Positions 1,952-39,662 of a DNA stretch of 64,000 nucleotides are shown here, piece after piece. The stretch lies in assembly GCA_024683775.1 (NCBI GenBank), contig GCA_024683775.1_4106.1. One strand, given 5' to 3'. Position 1 is the first letter of the stretch. Every line of letters starts with the position of its first letter. A model generated the notes under the pieces. It did no database searches, was not told where the DNA came from, and was given only the letters and a program-made list of their open reading frames with translations. A program made the translations under genes and the position numbers. Source of the stretch: a phage.

Positions 1952-3580
1952 ATGAGCATAAGTTTTAATAACCCACTGGATACTATGACTAGTACTGGTG
2001 CTAATGGATCTTTAGAACTAATAGTGCTTGGTGGTACACCAACTAATCCAAGACCTATTCGTTTTAATTCATCTTCTGTCATTTTACCAGTACAGGCATT
2101 GCCAGCAGGTGAGCAAGGTGCTATGGTATTTGATAGAAATGAGTTGGTGTTAAAATACCACAACGGGACAAGTTGGATTGCAGTATACGATACTGATACA
2201 ATTCTTGAACCAATCCGTATTTCACTCGATGAAGTGAACCGTAAACTGAATTTAAAAGTTGAAACAGTAACATATAGTAGTAGTGCTGTTCCAAGTGCGA
2301 GCATTAGTGGTACGAATTTAAATATCGTATTCCCTATTCCATCAAGTAGCGGTACTGGCCCAACAGGTCTTTATACTTCAATGAAGCCTGGTGCAATTAC
2401 CCAGTACTCATTGACTTCTGGACAAACTGTTGCTAGTATTCGTGAACAGATGTCTGGAGTAACCAATGGTCAAAGTGGTCGTAATGGTTCACAAGGTTCT
2501 CCGTGGAAAACATCTGATGGTTGGTGTTTTGCTGATGGAATGTGGTGGACATGGGATGGTGAAAATGGTACAATCACAAAACAAGTTCCAAATCTTAACC
2601 AAGAAGCATACTTGAAAGGTATTACCACATCAGGCGTAACTAAAACTGATAGTGTGATTGCAAGTAGTGCATCAATTAGTGGTACTGCGATATCAATTGA
2701 ACAACTTCCACCGCACTCATTTAGTTTCAGTGGAACTACTGGTGCTGCTGGTCGTCATAGTCATAGCCAAGCACTAAAAGGTATGGACAGAAGTGGTCTT
2801 AATGCGTTAACATCCAGTAACGACAACGGAATCCCAACTGTAATTAATAACATTAACGAAGCACCTAATCACGTGCATAGTTTCAGTGGTTCAACCAATA
2901 CCGTTGGTAGTGGACAAGCACATACCCACGGAATTAGCAATATTGACGTACCACACTTTAATGTGGCATACTTATATAACATTGCTGAGTCTAACGTTGC
3001 ATTGAGTGAAAAAGTTGCAAACACTCGTTATGTACTTAAAACTGGTGATACAATGTCTGGTTCATTGAGTATCGCAAACAGTGCAACAATTCGTTCGAAT
3101 GATACTTCATTAGTACTTTACTTCCGTAACGCGGCAGGAACTACTGAACGTGCAGCAATTTATCACAGTTCATCAACAAATACATTACGTTTGAGAAGTA
3201 ATGGTGGTTCTGAAGTTACAATTAACTCTTCTGGTGTACTTTATGCTCCATCAGTAACTGGTGCATCATTGTCTATTTCTGGAAACACAGCAACTGTTGC
3301 TAGTAAAAACATCGTCAGATCTATTAACGGTAACAACGCTGATGCAAGCGGTAACGTAACTTTAACACTGGGTGCTGTACAAGATGTTCGTTTAAGTAAA
3401 AGAACATCTACGCGAAGTGTTCCTGATTCTTCTTGGATCTATGCACCAGAAGGTGCTACGCTTGATGGGTTGTTTATTTCCGTAAATGGGAGTTCTGGTA
3501 CACACGTTGAAGGTTATAGTTGGAGATATACACAAAAATTAGTCAATGGTGTATGGACTAACGTAGTAGTGGAGTCTTAA
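1952..3580 (+). CDS. tail fibre protein
   Basis: Ser/Thr/Gly/Asn-rich 542-aa protein with HSHS, HVHS, HTHG His-x-His motifs and LKTGDTMSGSL motif typical of phage tail fibres. Confidence 0.6.
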   Translation: MSISFNNPLDTMTSTGANGSLELIVLGGTPTNPRPIRFNSSSVILPVQALPAGEQGAMVFDRNELVLKYHNGTSWIAVYDTDTILEPIRISLDEVNRKLNLKVETVTYSSSAVPSASISGTNLNIVFPIPSSSGTGPTGLYTSMKPGAITQYSLTSGQTVASIREQMSGVTNGQSGRNGSQGSPWKTSDGWCFADGMWWTWDGENGTITKQVPNLNQEAYLKGITTSGVTKTDSVIASSASISGTAISIEQLPPHSFSFSGTTGAAGRHSHSQALKGMDRSGLNALTSSNDNGIPTVINNINEAPNHVHSFSGSTNTVGSGQAHTHGISNIDVPHFNVAYLYNIAESNVALSEKVANTRYVLKTGDTMSGSLSIANSATIRSNDTSLVLYFRNAAGTTERAAIYHSSSTNTLRLRSNGGSEVTINSSGVLYAPSVTGASLSISGNTATVASKNIVRSINGNNADASGNVTLTLGAVQDVRLSKRTSTRSVPDSSWIYAPEGATLDGLFISVNGSSGTHVEGYSWRYTQKLVNGVWTNVVVES

Positions 3581-35387: not shown

Positions 35388-37706
35388 ATGATTAACGTAA
35401 CCAAGCGTAATGGAAAAAAAGAACCGTTATCTTTGGATAAGATCCATCAAATTTTATTTTTTGCTGCCGAAGGGCTGAGTGGTGTATCTGTTTCCGAAAT
35501 TGAAATTCGTGCACAACTTCAATTCTTTGAAGGTATTGAAACAAATACTATTCATGATATTCTGATTAAATCAGCAGCAGAACTTATTTCTGAAGATACA
35601 CCAAACTACCAATACGTTGCTGGTCGCTTACTAAATTATAGTATCCGTAAGCAAGTGTATGGTGACTATGACCCTATCAAGTACACTGCACATCTACAAG
35701 AAATGGTAGATACAAAAATCTATGATCCAGAAATTCTTGAGAAATACACACTTCAAGAAATTGAAGAGCTTGGACGTTACATCAAACATAAACGTGATGA
35801 TAAATTCACTTATGTTGCTATGCGTCAGTGGGAAGGAAAGTATCTATATAAGAATCGCGTAACTAAGAAAATCTACGAAACTCCACAAATGGCATATATG
35901 ACCATTGCAGCAATCATCTTTATGGAGTATGATCGCTCTGTACGTATGTCTTATGTTAAGAAGTTTTATGATGCTGTTAGTAACTTTGATATCAGTCTCC
36001 CGACTCCTATCATGGCTGGTCTACGTACCAATACACGTCAGTTTAGTTCTTGTGTAGTACTAAACGTTGGGGATAGTCTAGATAGTATTGGTTCTTCTAA
36101 CCACGCTATCCTACGTTATATTTCCCGTAAAGCTGGACTTGGTATCAATATGGGCCGCATTCGTGCTCTGGACTCCGAGATTCGTTCAGGTGATGCAGTA
36201 CACACTGGTTTGATTCCTTTCATTGCATCAACTGCTAAGACCGTTAAAAGCTGCTCTCAAGGTGGTGTACGTGGTGGTGCAGCAACAGTCCACTTCCCAT
36301 TGTGGCATTTGGAATTTGACAATCTTGTAGTACTGAAAAATAACAAAGGTACTGAGTTCAACCGTGTTCGACAACTTGACTATTGTTTCCAAGTGAACAA
36401 AACACTATATCAACGTTTAGTTGATGGCAAGAATATTACATTCTTTAGTCCTAATGAAGTTCCTGGGCTATATGAAGCATTCTGTTCTAACCAAAAAGAA
36501 TTTGAAAAGCTGTACAAGAAGTATGAAGCTGATCCAAGCATTCGTAAAAAATCTGTATCTGCTGTTGAAGTATTCAGTACTCTAATGACTGAACGTGCAG
36601 AAACTGGTCGTATCTATATTCAAAACATTGACCATGCAAACACACACTCAACCTTTATTGAATCAATTGCACCAATTGAACAATCCAACTTGTGTCAAGA
36701 AATCGCACTACCATCTGTGCCATTTGATGATATTAATACTGGTGAAGGTTTGATTAGTCTATGTACTTTGAGTGCAATCAACTGGGGTAACTTTGATCGT
36801 CCAGAAGATATGGAAACTGCTTGTGATCTTTCTGTACGTGCTCTTGATTCTCTATTGGATTATCAAGACTACCCAGTAGTTCATGCTGACCGTGCAACTA
36901 AAATGTATCGCCCATTAGGTGTTGGTATAATTAACTTTGCATACTTCCTTGCTAAACGTGGTTTGCGTTACAATGAAGCTGCATTGGAAACAGTTAACGA
37001 GTGGGCTGAAGCATGGTCTTATTATCTAATTAAATCTTCTGTTCAGCTTGCTAAAGAGAAAGGTAAGTGTGAAGGTTTTGACACACTAAAATATGCTAAA
37101 GGTATTTTACCAATTGATACCTATAAAGAAGATATTGATGCGTTGGTATCTCCTGAACTAAAACAAGATTGGGAAACATTGCGTCAGGATATCAAACAAT
37201 ATGGTATTCGTAACGCAACAACTATGGCACTGATGCCAGCAGAAACTAGTGCACAAATCAGTAACAGTACTAATGGTATTGAGAAACCTCGTTCACTTGT
37301 AACTAAGAAACTATCTAAAGATGGTATTCTGAAACAAGTAGTTCCTGAAATCAATAAGTTGAAAAACAAATATGATTTATTGTGGGACCAGAAAGATAAC
37401 ATCGGTTATCTACAAATCTGTGGTGTTCTTCAGAAATACATTGACCAAAGTATCAGTGTGAATACCAGTTACAATCCAGCACACTTCCCTGATGGTAAGT
37501 TGCCAATGTCAACACTACTAACTGAATTAATGTATGCATACAAAGTTGGTTTGAAAAATCTGTACTATCATAATACTAATGATGGTTCTGATGAAGTTGA
37601 TGTTGAGAAAGTACTAAAAGAAGCTGCAAAACCAGAATCAGGACAGTTTGTGTTGCCTACACTACCTGACTTAGATGAAGGTGATTGTGATAGTTGTAAG
37701 ATCTAA
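35388..37706 (+). CDS. nrdA: ribonucleotide reductase class I large subunit
   Basis: 772 aa; N-terminal ATP-cone (VTKRNGKKEPLSLDKI), active-site NLCQEIALP, C-terminal Cys pair. Confidence 0.9.
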   Translation: MINVTKRNGKKEPLSLDKIHQILFFAAEGLSGVSVSEIEIRAQLQFFEGIETNTIHDILIKSAAELISEDTPNYQYVAGRLLNYSIRKQVYGDYDPIKYTAHLQEMVDTKIYDPEILEKYTLQEIEELGRYIKHKRDDKFTYVAMRQWEGKYLYKNRVTKKIYETPQMAYMTIAAIIFMEYDRSVRMSYVKKFYDAVSNFDISLPTPIMAGLRTNTRQFSSCVVLNVGDSLDSIGSSNHAILRYISRKAGLGINMGRIRALDSEIRSGDAVHTGLIPFIASTAKTVKSCSQGGVRGGAATVHFPLWHLEFDNLVVLKNNKGTEFNRVRQLDYCFQVNKTLYQRLVDGKNITFFSPNEVPGLYEAFCSNQKEFEKLYKKYEADPSIRKKSVSAVEVFSTLMTERAETGRIYIQNIDHANTHSTFIESIAPIEQSNLCQEIALPSVPFDDINTGEGLISLCTLSAINWGNFDRPEDMETACDLSVRALDSLLDYQDYPVVHADRATKMYRPLGVGIINFAYFLAKRGLRYNEAALETVNEWAEAWSYYLIKSSVQLAKEKGKCEGFDTLKYAKGILPIDTYKEDIDALVSPELKQDWETLRQDIKQYGIRNATTMALMPAETSAQISNSTNGIEKPRSLVTKKLSKDGILKQVVPEINKLKNKYDLLWDQKDNIGYLQICGVLQKYIDQSISVNTSYNPAHFPDGKLPMSTLLTELMYAYKVGLKNLYYHNTNDGSDEVDVEKVLKEAAKPESGQFVLPTLPDLDEGDCDSCKI

Positions 37707-37710
37707 TTAA

Positions 37711-37737
37711 AGATCCCGCTTCGGCGGGATTTATTTC
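37711..37737 (+). terminator. rho-independent terminator (TTCG tetraloop)
   Basis: ATCCCGC-TTCG-GCGGGAT then TTATTT. Confidence 0.65.
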
Positions 37738-37751
37738 ATAGGAGTGATATA

Positions 37752-38525
37752 ATGAAAGTTGACTATCGTAGTCCAATAGATATTGGATTCATAGAAGAAT
37801 TTTGGGATGATCTTGATATGGATATGATTGTTCGCTATCAAAAACTCCCACAAGACTTTATAAAAAAACATTTTGATAAAATGAACCCTAATATGTTAGC
37901 TCGATATCAAACAATGACAACTGATTTTCTTAAAGAAAAGTGGGAGTGGTTTGATAAAAATGTTATTGCACAATATGTAGTCATGCCAATGGAATTGATT
38001 ATGGAAAAATGGAATGACTTCAAAGATAACTTTCTGGATACTGTTGCTAAGTATCAAAAACTAACACAAGATTTTATTCAAGACAAATGGAATGACCTTG
38101 TTGAATTTAGAGATGGTGTAATGTCGGAAATTTCCAGATACCAAAAACTAACACTTGATTTCATTAAAGATAAATGGGATTATATTGATAAGAACTATAT
38201 TTCATATTATCAAACTTTAACGGTTGATTTTATCAAAGATAATATTACTGCATTAAATGTTGCAGCAGTATCCGCATTTCAAATACTATCGGATGATATA
38301 CGCTCATTGATGGGGTTAGAAGCACCAGCAAAAACTATTACGGGTAATCAAATACTCGCGTTGGACCCATGTGCCGATGGTATGGCTCGATACAATGCTC
38401 ATACACCTGACAATAATACAGTTTTGACATGGAATGAACTACTTACACTACACTTGGGTTCACAAGAAGGAATTAGTGATATCCATTGGCTATCATATAA
38501 ATTGGGTCATAAAATTAATACATAA
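37752..38525 (+). CDS. tandem-repeat protein (about seven ~24-aa YQxLTxDFIxDKW repeats)
   Basis: Repeats RYQKLPQDFIKKHF, RYQTMTTDFLKEKW, KYQKLTQDFIQDKW, RYQKLTLDFIKDKW, YYQTLTVDFIKDN. Confidence 0.5.
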   Translation: MKVDYRSPIDIGFIEEFWDDLDMDMIVRYQKLPQDFIKKHFDKMNPNMLARYQTMTTDFLKEKWEWFDKNVIAQYVVMPMELIMEKWNDFKDNFLDTVAKYQKLTQDFIQDKWNDLVEFRDGVMSEISRYQKLTLDFIKDKWDYIDKNYISYYQTLTVDFIKDNITALNVAAVSAFQILSDDIRSLMGLEAPAKTITGNQILALDPCADGMARYNAHTPDNNTVLTWNELLTLHLGSQEGISDIHWLSYKLGHKINT

Positions 38526-38537
38526 AGGAATATATAT

Positions 38538-39662
38538 ATGTCAGTTTTCAAAATTAATGAGAAGTCTCACCTAGAAAAGAATATGTTTTTTGATGAAAGT
38601 GTTGATATTCAACGATTTGAAAGTAACAAATACTCTACACTTGAAAAACTAACTGAACAACAGAAAAGTTTCTTCTGGACACCAGGTGAAGTTGACGTAT
38701 CTAAAGATAAAATTGATTTTGCTAACCTCAATGATTCTGAGAAGCATATCTTTACATCAAACTTAAAACGTCAAATCCTTCTTGATTCAGTTCAAGGTCG
38801 TGGTCCTAATCTAATGCTACTGCCATATGCATCTCTACCTGAACTTGAAAACTTTATTGAAACATGGGCGTTCTTTGAAGGTGCTATTCATAGTAAATCA
38901 TATACACATATTATTCGTAACATTTATCCTAATCCATCTGAAGTTTTTGATACTATGTTGGACATTCCAGAAATCACCGATTGTGCTGCTGATGTTTCAA
39001 AATACTATGATGACCTTGATGAACTAGGAACATTGTATCGTGCATTAGGTGAAGGCACTCATACTGTTAATGGTAAAACTATTGAAATTAATATGTATGA
39101 TCTAAAGAAAAAACTATGGTTATGTTTGAATAGTATTAACATTCTTGAAGGTGTTCGTTTTTATGCTAGTTTTGCTTGTTCATGGGCATTTGCAGAGAAC
39201 AACCTCATGGAAGGTAATGCAAAGATTATTCGTCTAATTTGTCGTGATGAAAACCTTCATCTCGCAGCAACACAAATGATTTTACGTCTTCTAAAGAAAG
39301 AAGATCCAGATATGGTAAAAATTGCCGAAGAGTGCTATGATGAAGTACTGGAAATGTTTATGTCTGCTATTCGCCAAGAAGAAGCATGGGCAGATTTCCT
39401 CTTTAAAGATGGTTCTATTATTGGATTGAACTCTGAAATTCTTAAACAGTATGTTCGCTGGATTGGTTCTAAGCGTATGACTGCACTTGGTATCAAATGT
39501 CCATATACTGTATCCAAGAGTAACCCACTACCGTGGACTGAACACTGGGTAAGTGGTAGTTCTGTACAGGTAGCACCACAAGAAACTGAAATCAGTTCTT
39601 ATATCATTGGTGGTATTGTGAATGATATCCAAGGAGATACATTCTCGCCATTTAAACTATAA
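38538..39662 (+). CDS. nrdB: ribonucleotide reductase class I small subunit
   Basis: 374 aa, length and ferritin-like helical pattern of R2; adjacent to nrdA. Confidence 0.8.
   Translation: MSVFKINEKSHLEKNMFFDESVDIQRFESNKYSTLEKLTEQQKSFFWTPGEVDVSKDKIDFANLNDSEKHIFTSNLKRQILLDSVQGRGPNLMLLPYASLPELENFIETWAFFEGAIHSKSYTHIIRNIYPNPSEVFDTMLDIPEITDCAADVSKYYDDLDELGTLYRALGEGTHTVNGKTIEINMYDLKKKLWLCLNSINILEGVRFYASFACSWAFAENNLMEGNAKIIRLICRDENLHLAATQMILRLLKKEDPDMVKIAEECYDEVLEMFMSAIRQEEAWADFLFKDGSIIGLNSEILKQYVRWIGSKRMTALGIKCPYTVSKSNPLPWTEHWVSGSSVQVAPQETEISSYIIGGIVNDIQGDTFSPFKL

What the first reader, a model, noticed from the sequence alone, without database searches (positions are those of the whole stretch)
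37752..38525. Tandem-repeat protein inserted between nrdA and nrdB
A 257-aa ORF with about seven ~24-aa repeats of consensus (R)YQxLTxDFIxDKWxxxDKN sits exactly between the two RNR subunit genes. In T4-like phages the nrdA-nrdB junction is a known hotspot for mobile-element insertions. This ORF has no obvious endonuclease motif. It could be a repeat scaffold or a cargo gene left by a mobile element.
Basis: partly seen in the sequence, partly recalled or inferred. Interest (0 to 1): 0.45.

Follow-up and report, generated by a model that had tools for sequence, protein, structure and literature searches.

The report
Dispensable helical-repeat gene inside phage nrdAB operon
The 257-aa ORF between nrdA and nrdB is a real, selected gene of a jumbo coliphage encoding a helical-repeat protein of the uncharacterised viral "tryptophan repeat" family; it is an old resident of this site that relatives keep deleting, not cargo dropped by a mobile element.

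Summary
ORF 37752-38525 (+), 257 aa, lies between nrdA (35388-37706) and nrdB (38538-39662). It has seven 23-29-aa repeats plus one degenerate unit (z = 17.6 against shuffles) and a conserved ~70-aa C-terminal domain.

The window is an Asteriusvirus, a Rak2/121Q-like jumbo phage 99.9% identical to phage WPEC5, not a T4-like phage.

The gene is single-copy and under purifying selection (dN/dS about 0.05, dS saturated). Its length is 257 aa in seven of eight sequenced orthologues. It sits in the same slot in 19 of 72 related records. Its tree follows the NrdAB tree.

At least six structurally distinct empty alleles exist. One of them, in phage Turkey5, keeps a relic of the gene's leader and last codons and fits a deletion between two AAATTG repeats. 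The gene is therefore ancestral and repeatedly lost.

The function is untested. The likeliest role is a non-essential protein-binding adaptor. In phage GAP32 the same slot holds an endonuclease gene instead. Interest is low to moderate.

The parts
37752..38525 (+). Complete gene for the 257-aa repeat protein (the end coordinate includes the stop codon)
   Evidence: ORF. It is 100% identical in seven deposited Asteriusvirus genomes and 64-83% identical in nine further jumbo phages at the same locus. dN/dS is 0.04-0.06. It is the only family member in the window.
37770..38276 (+). Repeat array, residues 7-175: seven helical-hairpin repeats of 23-29 aa (22-aa first unit); a degenerate eighth unit follows at residues 176-198
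   Evidence: Self-alignment z = 17.6. The AlphaFold2 model shows regular pairs of short helices with pLDDT mostly above 90. The profile finds 1462 cluster representatives at E <= 1e-3. Foldseek matches entomopoxvirus tryptophan-repeat proteins at E = 2.5e-10.
38307..38522 (+). C-terminal domain, residues 186-257. Invariant in the ten-sequence alignment: I..PC..G..R, then WN, then D..WL; nearly invariant (>=90%): Y after the R, L and H after WN, I after the D
   Evidence: Alignment A3 has 10 invariant and 4 nearly invariant columns, shared with small two-domain metagenomic proteins P0052, P0085, P0090, P0131, P0123 and P0262; the same profile also matches P0266-P0273. phrog_27418 matches residues 174-249. 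No Pfam or NCBIfam match.
37734..37751 (+). Leader with the Shine-Dalgarno sequence (AGGAG) of the repeat gene
   Evidence: Sequence. A purine-rich Shine-Dalgarno sequence sits at the same distance in the orthologues. A mutated copy of this leader survives in the empty allele of Turkey5: 20 of 26 bases match, and 0 of 1000 shuffles reach the score.
37713..37733 (+). Conserved stem-loop (CCCGC-TTCG-GCGGG) followed by a T-rich tract, directly after the nrdA stop; the upstream boundary of the variable slot
   Evidence: It is present in every relative, whether occupied, empty or endonuclease-bearing, with compensatory stem changes.
35388..37706 (+). nrdA (class Ia RNR large subunit), upstream flank
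   Evidence: and the annotations of the relatives.
38538..39662 (+). nrdB (class Ia RNR small subunit), downstream flank. Its ribosome-binding site (AAGGAA) starts at the stop codon of the repeat gene

Best explanation
The ORF is a genuine accessory gene that has long resided inside the nrdA-nrdB operon of Rak2-like jumbo phages. It encodes a two-module protein.

The N-terminal module is a rigid alpha-solenoid of seven 23-29-aa helical-hairpin repeats. It is a divergent member of the viral 'tryptophan repeat' family. The C-terminal module is a conserved ~70-aa domain.

Most likely the solenoid surface binds a protein partner, from the host or the phage, during the phase of infection when the RNR genes are expressed. 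The C-terminal module would then dock or act on that partner.

The function is beneficial, since the gene is under purifying selection, but not essential. The gene has been deleted many times; at least one deletion fits slippage or recombination between short direct repeats. Homologous recombination through the conserved nrdA and nrdB flanks can spread either allele.

Shown: gene reality, selection, fold class, family relationship, ancestral position, and one deletion scar. Inferred: protein binding, the timing of expression, and the conditional benefit.
For: Gene and selection:
- Intact in all 19 carrier records; 257 aa in seven of the eight sequenced orthologues, 254 aa in EJP2.
- dN/dS is 0.04-0.06, similar to nrdB, although dS is saturated.

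Ancestry:
- The NrdAB tree and the ORF tree have largely the same topology. Carriers occur in every deep branch: XaC1, CBB/Kaldavass, Yen9-03, EJP2, and JNE01/UE-S1/window.
- The Turkey5 empty allele lies between flanks 97.6-98.6% identical to those of the carrier JNE01. It keeps the leader and mutated start of the gene (0 of 1000 shuffles reach the score) and its last codons ATACATAA.
- That allele matches the predicted product of a deletion between two AAATTG repeats at 79 of 96 positions.
- The empty alleles differ in length and sequence (45, 52-54, 55, 60, 63 and 94 nt), so there were several independent events.

Fold and family:
- AlphaFold2 gives pLDDT 91.8 and pTM 0.78, an all-helical solenoid.
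- Foldseek against viral models puts entomopoxvirus tryptophan-repeat proteins, pithovirus, orpheovirus and marseillevirus proteins and phage G gp558-563 on top, E = 2.5e-10 to 1e-4.
- Deposited phage genomes name related proteins 'tryptophan repeat gene family protein'.

Modularity:
- The same repeat array is fused to at least two different C-terminal domains in a sample of 274 relatives.
- One entomopoxvirus member, AMV254, is reported to carry an F-box, which marks a substrate-recruiting adaptor (PMC7728225).
- Elsewhere the family forms tandem paralogue clusters, as host-interaction families typically do.

Dispensability:
- vB_Ec-M-J, TH47 and CMSTMSU lack the gene, yet their nrdA and nrdB are 98.6-98.9% identical to the window's.
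Against: - No partner, expression data or phenotype exists for any family member in the literature held.
- The strict conservation of position inside the RNR operon could reflect an RNR-linked role rather than a host-directed one.
- The C-terminal domain has no recognisable relatives of known function.
- The gene is more diverged than its flanks: 74-80% against 84-94% nucleotide identity between the window and UE-S1. This could reflect faster evolution or allele exchange, and the number of independent deletions would be lower if recombination spreads empty alleles.
Confidence: 0.55

Rival explanations
1. RNR accessory subunit. The solenoid binds NrdA and/or NrdB, or glutaredoxin or NrdI-like helpers, and assembles, stabilises or regulates the phage class Ia ribonucleotide reductase. 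It might, for example, tether it into a dNTP-synthesising complex.
For: The gene has kept exactly this position between nrdA and nrdB across several genera. It lies on the same strand, 9-19 nt from the nrdB start, with its stop codon abutting or lying a few bases upstream of the nrdB ribosome-binding site. That layout is typical of co-translated partners.
Against: Most relatives (53 of 72 records) lack the gene. These include vB_Ec-M-J, whose nrdA and nrdB are about 99% identical to the window's, so loss required no compensating change in the RNR. Homologues in other phages and elements are not next to RNR genes; they sit in paralogue clusters.
Confidence: 0.15
2. Counter-defence or host-takeover factor in the strict sense. 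The protein neutralises a strain-specific bacterial immunity or stress protein, which would explain why its retention varies from lineage to lineage.
For: - Distribution among very close relatives is patchy.
- The gene evolves faster than its flanks.
- The family expands into tandem multigene clusters in other phages, and in a contig whose neighbouring genes carry DUF932, DUF3846 and DUF4314; from my own knowledge, untested here, such genes are typical of anti-restriction regions.
- Eukaryotic large DNA viruses carry the same repeat in multigene families.
Against: There is no similarity to any known anti-defence protein. The PADLOC library was not informative for this question and was not searched. 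This reading is a special case of the best explanation rather than a true alternative.
Confidence: 0.2
3. Remnant cargo of a mobile element (homing-endonuclease cassette or similar) that inserted at the nrdA-nrdB junction.
For: There is a presence/absence polymorphism with clean boundaries. GAP32 has a free-standing endonuclease gene in the same slot. From my own knowledge, untested here, T4-type phages carry the homing-endonuclease gene mobE between nrdA and nrdB.
Against: - No endonuclease domain, and an all-helical repeat fold.
- No target-site duplication or terminal repeats.
- GC content is 0.30-0.35 across the gene, only slightly below the 0.32-0.38 of the adjacent nrdA and nrdB windows.
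- The ORF tree tracks the host-gene tree, and carriers are found in all deep branches.
- A deletion scar is present in an empty allele.
- No intron or other RNA element was found.
Confidence: 0.05
4. A decaying or non-functional ORF that happens to remain open.
For: The gene is frequently lost, and no function is known.
Against: The frame is intact and the length almost fixed in all carriers, despite divergence down to 64% amino-acid identity. dN/dS is about 0.05. The fold is predicted with confidence. Invariant residues are shared with distant relatives.
Confidence: 0.02

Closest known systems
'Tryptophan repeat gene family' of entomopoxviruses (for example MSV027, MSV029, MSV205, AMV029). 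The same name is used in GenBank for Bacillus phage BpSp and phage G proteins (gp556, gp558-563).
   Same: Both have tandem ~23-aa helical repeats with the core motif Q-x-L-[ST]-x-x-F-I. These proteins are the top Foldseek matches: E = 2.5e-10 to 1e-4 at 20-26% identity. tblastn finds phage G gp563 and a BpSp 'tryptophan repeat gene family protein'. Neither family has a characterised function.
   Different: Here the gene is single-copy and syntenic inside an RNR operon, not part of a multigene family. The canonical Trp (the DKVDW position) is mostly replaced, and a Trp sits one residue after the canonical Phe (DKW where the family has REF). Two repeats carry 3- and 6-residue insertions. The C-terminal domain matches the profile in only 19 of the 274 relatives examined.
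PHROG family phrog_3532 (unknown function), with phrog_11920, phrog_22019 and phrog_27418
   Same: phrog_3532 matches residues 2-229 at E = 4e-37, and phrog_27418 covers the C-terminal domain. The same PHROGs hit the paralogue clusters in metagenomic contigs.
   Different: PHROGs give no function. The window protein matches less strongly than the consensus-like members do (E = 1e-64 to 1e-97).
Short-period alpha-solenoids with solved structures: leucine-rich repeat variant (1LRV, 24-aa period), PBS-lyase/YibA-type HEAT-like repeats and alphaRep binders, and the PP2A-A, importin and Integrator INTS4 HEAT arrays
Free-standing homing endonuclease genes at phage nrdA-nrdB junctions (mobE of T4-type phages, from my own knowledge; GAP32_299 here)
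   Same: They occupy the same intergenic slot, and their presence varies among relatives.
   Different: The window ORF has no nuclease domain and shows vertical inheritance. GAP32_299 is unrelated to it (BLASTP E = 1.8) and matches endonuclease families (phrog_681 at 2.8e-53, MUG113/T5orf172 at 6.5e-5).

Membership tests
Viral 'tryptophan repeat' family (entomopoxvirus MSV/AMV type; phrog_3532) | Tandem array of ~23-aa repeats with the core Q-x-L-[ST]-x-x-F-I and a following aromatic residue | tested here: met
   There are seven units of 23-29 aa. The profile of the orthologues retrieves 1462 cluster representatives with the consensus ISxYQxLSEDFIREFxDKVDW. phrog_3532 matches at E = 4e-37.
Viral 'tryptophan repeat' family (entomopoxvirus MSV/AMV type; phrog_3532) | Detectable similarity to the named entomopoxvirus members | tested here: met
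   Foldseek (3Di+AA) against BFVD gives Mythimna separata EPV at 2.5e-10, AMV029 at 4.1e-10, MSV027 at 5.1e-10 and MSV205 at 5.7e-9, with 20-24% identity. A sequence-only test against these proteins could not be run because they are not in the searchable sets.
Viral 'tryptophan repeat' family (entomopoxvirus MSV/AMV type; phrog_3532) | Conserved Trp at the end of each repeat (the DKVDW position) | tested here: not met
   In the window protein that position is K, N, F or L (YIDKN, WFDKN, DKMNP). Trp occurs instead one residue after the canonical Phe (EKW, DKW). The protein is therefore a divergent subfamily, not a canonical member.
Viral 'tryptophan repeat' family (entomopoxvirus MSV/AMV type; phrog_3532) | Organisation as a multigene family (several paralogues per genome) | tested here: not met
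   There is one copy per Rak2-like genome (places_in_record = 1) and one in the window. By contrast there are 13 places in LPJP1, 8 in BpSp and 5 in phage G.
Homing-endonuclease or mobile-element cassette | Encodes a nuclease domain (HNH, GIY-YIG, LAGLIDADG, PD-(D/E)XK) | tested here: not met
   No Pfam, NCBIfam or PHROG nuclease hit. The fold is an all-helical solenoid.
Homing-endonuclease or mobile-element cassette | Phylogeny incongruent with the flanking genes, or recent spread | tested here: not met
   The ORF tree is largely congruent with the NrdAB tree, and the ORF is more diverged than its flanks, not less.
Homing-endonuclease or mobile-element cassette | Empty sites are pristine, with no remnant of the element | tested here: not met
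   The Turkey5 empty site retains the leader and the 3' codons of the gene. The other empty sites are too short and AT-rich to judge.
HEAT/ARM/LRV-type alpha-solenoid (fold class) | Superhelical stack of antiparallel helix pairs | tested here: met
HEAT/ARM/LRV-type alpha-solenoid (fold class) | Sequence-level homology to a curated HEAT, ARM or LRV family | tested here: not met
   No Pfam repeat family matches. No PDB sequence matches.
RNR accessory protein | Physical or functional interaction with NrdA or NrdB | not testable with these tools
   Only synteny is available. Loss of the gene without any accompanying change in NrdA or NrdB argues against an obligatory role.

The most novel reading that the evidence does not exclude
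The ~70-aa C-terminal module has invariant Cys, Gly, Arg, Trp-Asn and Asp-x-x-Trp-Leu and a nearly invariant His. It may be a previously unrecognised effector or docking domain that the solenoid delivers to a specific host protein. If so, this single-copy, genetically tractable coliphage gene would be the first experimental handle on a repeat family shared by jumbo phages, entomopoxviruses and giant viruses. That family has thousands of members and no Pfam model, solved structure or known function. Alternatively, the protein may be a facultative third subunit that tunes the phage RNR.
Probability: 0.12. Interest if true: 0.65.

Novelty: new member of a known kind. Interest (0 to 1): 0.3.

Why it matters
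For the scan, this settles that the ORF is a real but ordinary accessory gene, not a mobile-element footprint.

Three points are of wider use:
- The repeat family is very large: 1462 cluster representatives at 50% identity and more than 4000 clusters at 90%. It spans bacterial and eukaryotic large DNA viruses. It has no Pfam or NCBIfam model and no solved structure.
- The E. coli jumbo-phage copy is single, short, well modelled and naturally present or absent in near-isogenic phages (WPEC5/fEgEco12 against vB_Ec-M-J; JNE01 against Turkey5). That offers ready-made material for a functional test.
- The nrdA|nrdB slot of Rak2-like phages exists in three states (repeat gene, empty, endonuclease gene), which makes it a compact example of accessory-gene turnover inside a conserved operon.

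Tried and rejected
- DNA-level tandem repeats: none found.
- Pfam, NCBIfam and PDB sequence searches of the ORF and of consensus-like relatives: noise only.
- The precomputed PF08004/DUF1699 label on many relatives is only a faint hit and was not reproduced by hmmscan. The literature search for DUF1699 returned only typographical errors for DUF1669.
- The first AlphaFold2 run, with 6 orthologues, was poor (pLDDT 60) and was not used. A 33-row alignment including repeat fragments gave pLDDT 91.8.
- The afdb50 fold library was unavailable.
- Foldseek against the PDB gave no hit at E <= 0.001.
- A word-indexed search with the C-terminal domain alone found only 9 proteins, all short, with the same architecture wherever the N-terminus is present, so no informative fusion partner emerged.
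- The SNP pattern between the window and vB_Ec-M-J around the junction showed no clear co-conversion or import tract. Sliding identity shows the ORF more diverged than its flanks but does not separate fast evolution from allele exchange.
- Low-gap-penalty alignments of the empty intergenic regions to occupied loci scatter spuriously. Only the terminal blocks and the Turkey5 relic are trustworthy.
- Rfam: no intron or other RNA family.
- Literature on CBB, fEgEco12, jumbo-phage comparative genomics and phage G: the gene is not discussed. The original MsEPV genome paper is not held.
- The reverse-strand ORFs overlapping the gene (37731-37871 and 37896-38057) were treated as spurious by-products of an AT-rich coding region and not pursued.

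Full report
**1. What is there.**
The ORF listing and the raw sequence show a 774-nt ORF (37752-38525, + strand, 257 aa). It lies between a 772-aa NrdA gene (35388-37706) and a 374-aa NrdB gene (38538-39662).

A GC-rich stem-loop with a UUCG-type loop and a T-rich tail follows the nrdA stop (37713-37733). The ORF has its own AGGAG Shine-Dalgarno sequence. Its TAA stop runs directly into the nrdB ribosome-binding site.

The window is not from a T4-like phage. The 4.3-kb nrd region is 99.2-99.9% identical to Escherichia phages WPEC5, WPEC3, fEgEco12, EC.P1, BF17, Turkey3 and Ecwhy_1. These are 350-385-kb jumbo phages, and those whose records were opened are classified in the genus Asteriusvirus, the Rak2/121Q group.

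**2. The repeats.**
Tandem Repeats Finder finds nothing at the DNA level. At the protein level the N-terminal 98 residues align to residues 99-185 with score 126, against 29.4 +/- 5.5 in 500 shuffles (z = 17.6).

The units are 7-28, 29-51, 52-74, 75-100, 101-129, 130-152 and 153-175. A degenerate eighth unit (176-198) leads into a non-repetitive C-terminal region.

**3. Distribution and history.**
A blastn search recovers 72 records of the Rak2-like clade. tblastn finds the ORF in 19 of them, always as a single copy and always between nrdA and nrdB:
- seven near-identical Asteriusviruses;
- UE-S1 (83% aa identity) and JNE01 (82%);
- Xanthomonas phages XaC1 and XbC2, Erwinia phage Kaldavass, Yersinia phages fHe-Yen9-03 and -04, Escherichia phage EJP2 and Pectobacterium phage CBB (64-70%).

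In the non-carriers listed the gene is cleanly missing, leaving 45-94 nt between nrdA and nrdB. The Klebsiella Rak2-group junctions were not inspected.

Absence occurs at every level of relatedness:
- vB_Ec-M-J, TH47 and CMSTMSU have flanks 98.6-98.9% identical to the window.
- Turkey5 has flanks 97.6-98.6% identical to the carrier JNE01.
- Serratia phage BF lacks the gene, although Yen9-03 and -04 of the same genus carry it.

A neighbour-joining tree of NrdA+NrdB for 15 phages places carriers in every deep branch. The tree of the ORF itself has largely the same topology. Strict Dollo parsimony needs seven losses on that tree.

The empty alleles fall into at least six different length and sequence classes, so several independent events are certain. 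Homologous recombination through the conserved flanks may have spread some alleles.

The Turkey5 allele is informative. Its 94-nt spacer keeps a mutated copy of the ORF leader and start. The window has TCATAGGAGTGATATAATGAAAGTTG and Turkey5 has TCATAGAGATGATATAATAAATTTTG; 0 of 1000 shuffles reach the alignment score. It also keeps the ORF's last codons, ATACATAA. It matches, at 79 of 96 positions, the product predicted for a deletion between two AAATTG repeats at ORF nucleotides 4 and 747 of JNE01.

No target-site duplication, inverted repeat, intron or RNA family is present. GC content is 0.30-0.35 across the gene, only slightly below the 0.32-0.38 of the adjacent nrdA and nrdB windows.

Together these results show an ancestral gene that is repeatedly deleted, not an insertion.

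**4. Selection.**
All eight sequenced orthologues are intact; seven are exactly 257 aa and EJP2 is 254 aa. Nei-Gojobori dN/dS is 0.04-0.06 for four pairs, the same range as nrdB. dS is saturated, so the ratio is approximate.

The gene evolves faster than its neighbours. Window against UE-S1 gives 83% aa identity for the ORF and 96% for NrdAB; at the nucleotide level the figures are 74-80% and 84-94%.

**5. Family.**
Pfam, NCBIfam and PDB sequence searches give nothing. PHROGs place the protein in phrog_3532 (E = 4e-37, unknown function) and its C-terminus in phrog_27418.

A profile of the orthologues, searched exhaustively against 1.84 billion cluster representatives, finds 1462 proteins at E <= 1e-3. 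A word-indexed profile search finds 4206 clusters at 90% identity.

Their repeats follow the consensus ISxYQxLSEDFIREFxDKVDW. The window protein is a divergent variant: the terminal Trp is mostly lost and a Trp appears one position after the canonical Phe.

GenBank calls relatives in Bacillus phages BpSp and G 'tryptophan repeat gene family protein'. The name was coined for entomopoxviruses.

The link to the entomopoxvirus proteins was tested directly. Foldseek of the model against viral predicted structures ranks the following on top, at E = 2.5e-10 to 1e-4 and 17-26% identity for most of them:
- Mythimna separata EPV, AMV029, MSV027, MSV205 and MSV029;
- pithovirus, orpheovirus and marseillevirus proteins;
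- phage G gp558-563.

Elsewhere the family occurs as tandem paralogue clusters: at least six adjacent genes in Listeria phage LPJP1, four in a 201-kb metagenomic contig and three in another.

The repeat array is combined with different C-terminal domains. One is a frequent YxFQYxY...FGLSxWT domain. Another is the domain found here, which also closes a set of small (94-199 aa) metagenomic proteins. In the ten-sequence alignment A3 its invariant residues are I..PC..G..R, WN and D..WL.

**6. Structure.**
With six orthologues AlphaFold2 was unconvincing (pLDDT 60). With a 33-row alignment it gave pLDDT 91.8 and pTM 0.78.

The model has regular pairs of short helices from residue 11 to 186. These are followed by a compact domain of four helices and a two-residue beta-bridge pair.

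**7. Mechanism.**
It is shown that the gene is real and selected, encodes an alpha-solenoid with a conserved terminal domain, sits ancestrally in the nrdAB operon, and is dispensable.

It is inferred that the protein works as a binding adaptor. The grounds are these:
- The fold class consists almost entirely of binding scaffolds.
- The family shows domain modularity.
- One entomopoxvirus member is reported to carry an F-box (PMC7728225).
- The family forms multigene clusters in other viruses.

On this reading the repeat surface recognises a partner and the C-terminal module docks or acts on it, during the period when the RNR genes are expressed. The patchy retention suggests a host- or condition-dependent benefit.

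An RNR-accessory role is the main rival, because of the long-conserved synteny. It is weakened by loss of the gene without any change in NrdA or NrdB, and by the lack of RNR linkage in other genomes.

The mobile-element reading is essentially refuted for this gene.

**8. A relevant side observation.**
In Cronobacter phage GAP32, of the same genus as the carrier CBB, the identical slot holds an unrelated 245-aa gene. RefSeq annotates it as an endonuclease. It matches phrog_681 (2.8e-53), an HNH PHROG (9.4e-13) and Pfam MUG113/T5orf172 plus zinc-ribbon motifs.

The repeat gene is simply not that element.

**9. Verdict.**
The gene is a divergent new member of a known but uncharacterised viral repeat family. 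Its population dynamics are ordinary accessory-gene turnover.

Its value is as a tractable entry point to that family. Interest is 0.3.

Noticed in passing
L019 (Cronobacter phage GAP32, NC_019401) 2392-3129; equivalent to window 37734-38537: The same nrdA|nrdB slot holds an unrelated 245-aa endonuclease-like gene (GAP32_299). It matches phrog_681 'endonuclease' at 2.8e-53, an HNH PHROG at 9.4e-13, and Pfam MUG113/T5orf172 plus DUF723 and zinc-ribbon motifs. The slot therefore exists in three states across the clade: repeat gene, empty, or endonuclease gene.
   Followed up: partly
window 37713-37733 (+), and the same place in L001-L014 and L019: The stem-loop directly after the nrdA stop (CCCGC-TTCG-GCGGG plus a T-rich tail) is kept in every relative whatever follows it. 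The stems show compensatory changes (CCCAC/GTGGG, CCCGT/ACGGG, CCCCTC/GAGGGG). It is probably a leaky terminator, an attenuator or an mRNA-stabilising hairpin within the nrdAB operon.
   Followed up: partly
L005 (Escherichia phage Turkey5) 2302-2395, compared with L006 (JNE01) 2302-3135: The 94-nt empty spacer of Turkey5 is a deletion scar. It keeps the leader with ATG mutated to ATA, and the last codons of the lost gene. It fits a 743-bp deletion between two AAATTG direct repeats.
   Followed up: yes
L018 (Listeria phage LPJP1) 2927-8046; L015 3663-10227; L016 1009-2255: In other phages and elements the same repeat family forms tandem clusters of 3 to 6 or more paralogues with different C-terminal tails. 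On L015 the neighbouring genes carry DUF932, DUF3846, DUF4314 and SEC-C.
   Followed up: partly
P0155, P0157, P0175, P0265 and about 90 of the 274 collected relatives: A second, more frequent C-terminal domain is fused to the same repeats (WLYKD...YIIAYK...NFQYQY...FGLSAWT...VKV..EDVG..KIRC). It also has no current Pfam hit apart from a faint precomputed DUF1699 label.
   Followed up: no
BFVD hits A0A1L2CVN3 (phage CBB, 264 aa) and K4FBA1 (phage GAP32, 254 aa): Two other Rak2-like phage proteins give weak Foldseek matches to the model (12-16% identity, E = 9e-5 and 6e-4). They may be a second, very divergent helical-repeat protein in these genomes. No counterpart was detected in this window.
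   Followed up: partly
window 36887-37388 (3' part of nrdA): Substitutions between the window and its closest gene-less relative vB_Ec-M-J are concentrated here: 18 of 47 fall in about 500 bp. At most of these sites vB_Ec-M-J agrees with 121Q and UE-S1. This hints at a small recombination patch in the window lineage.
   Followed up: partly
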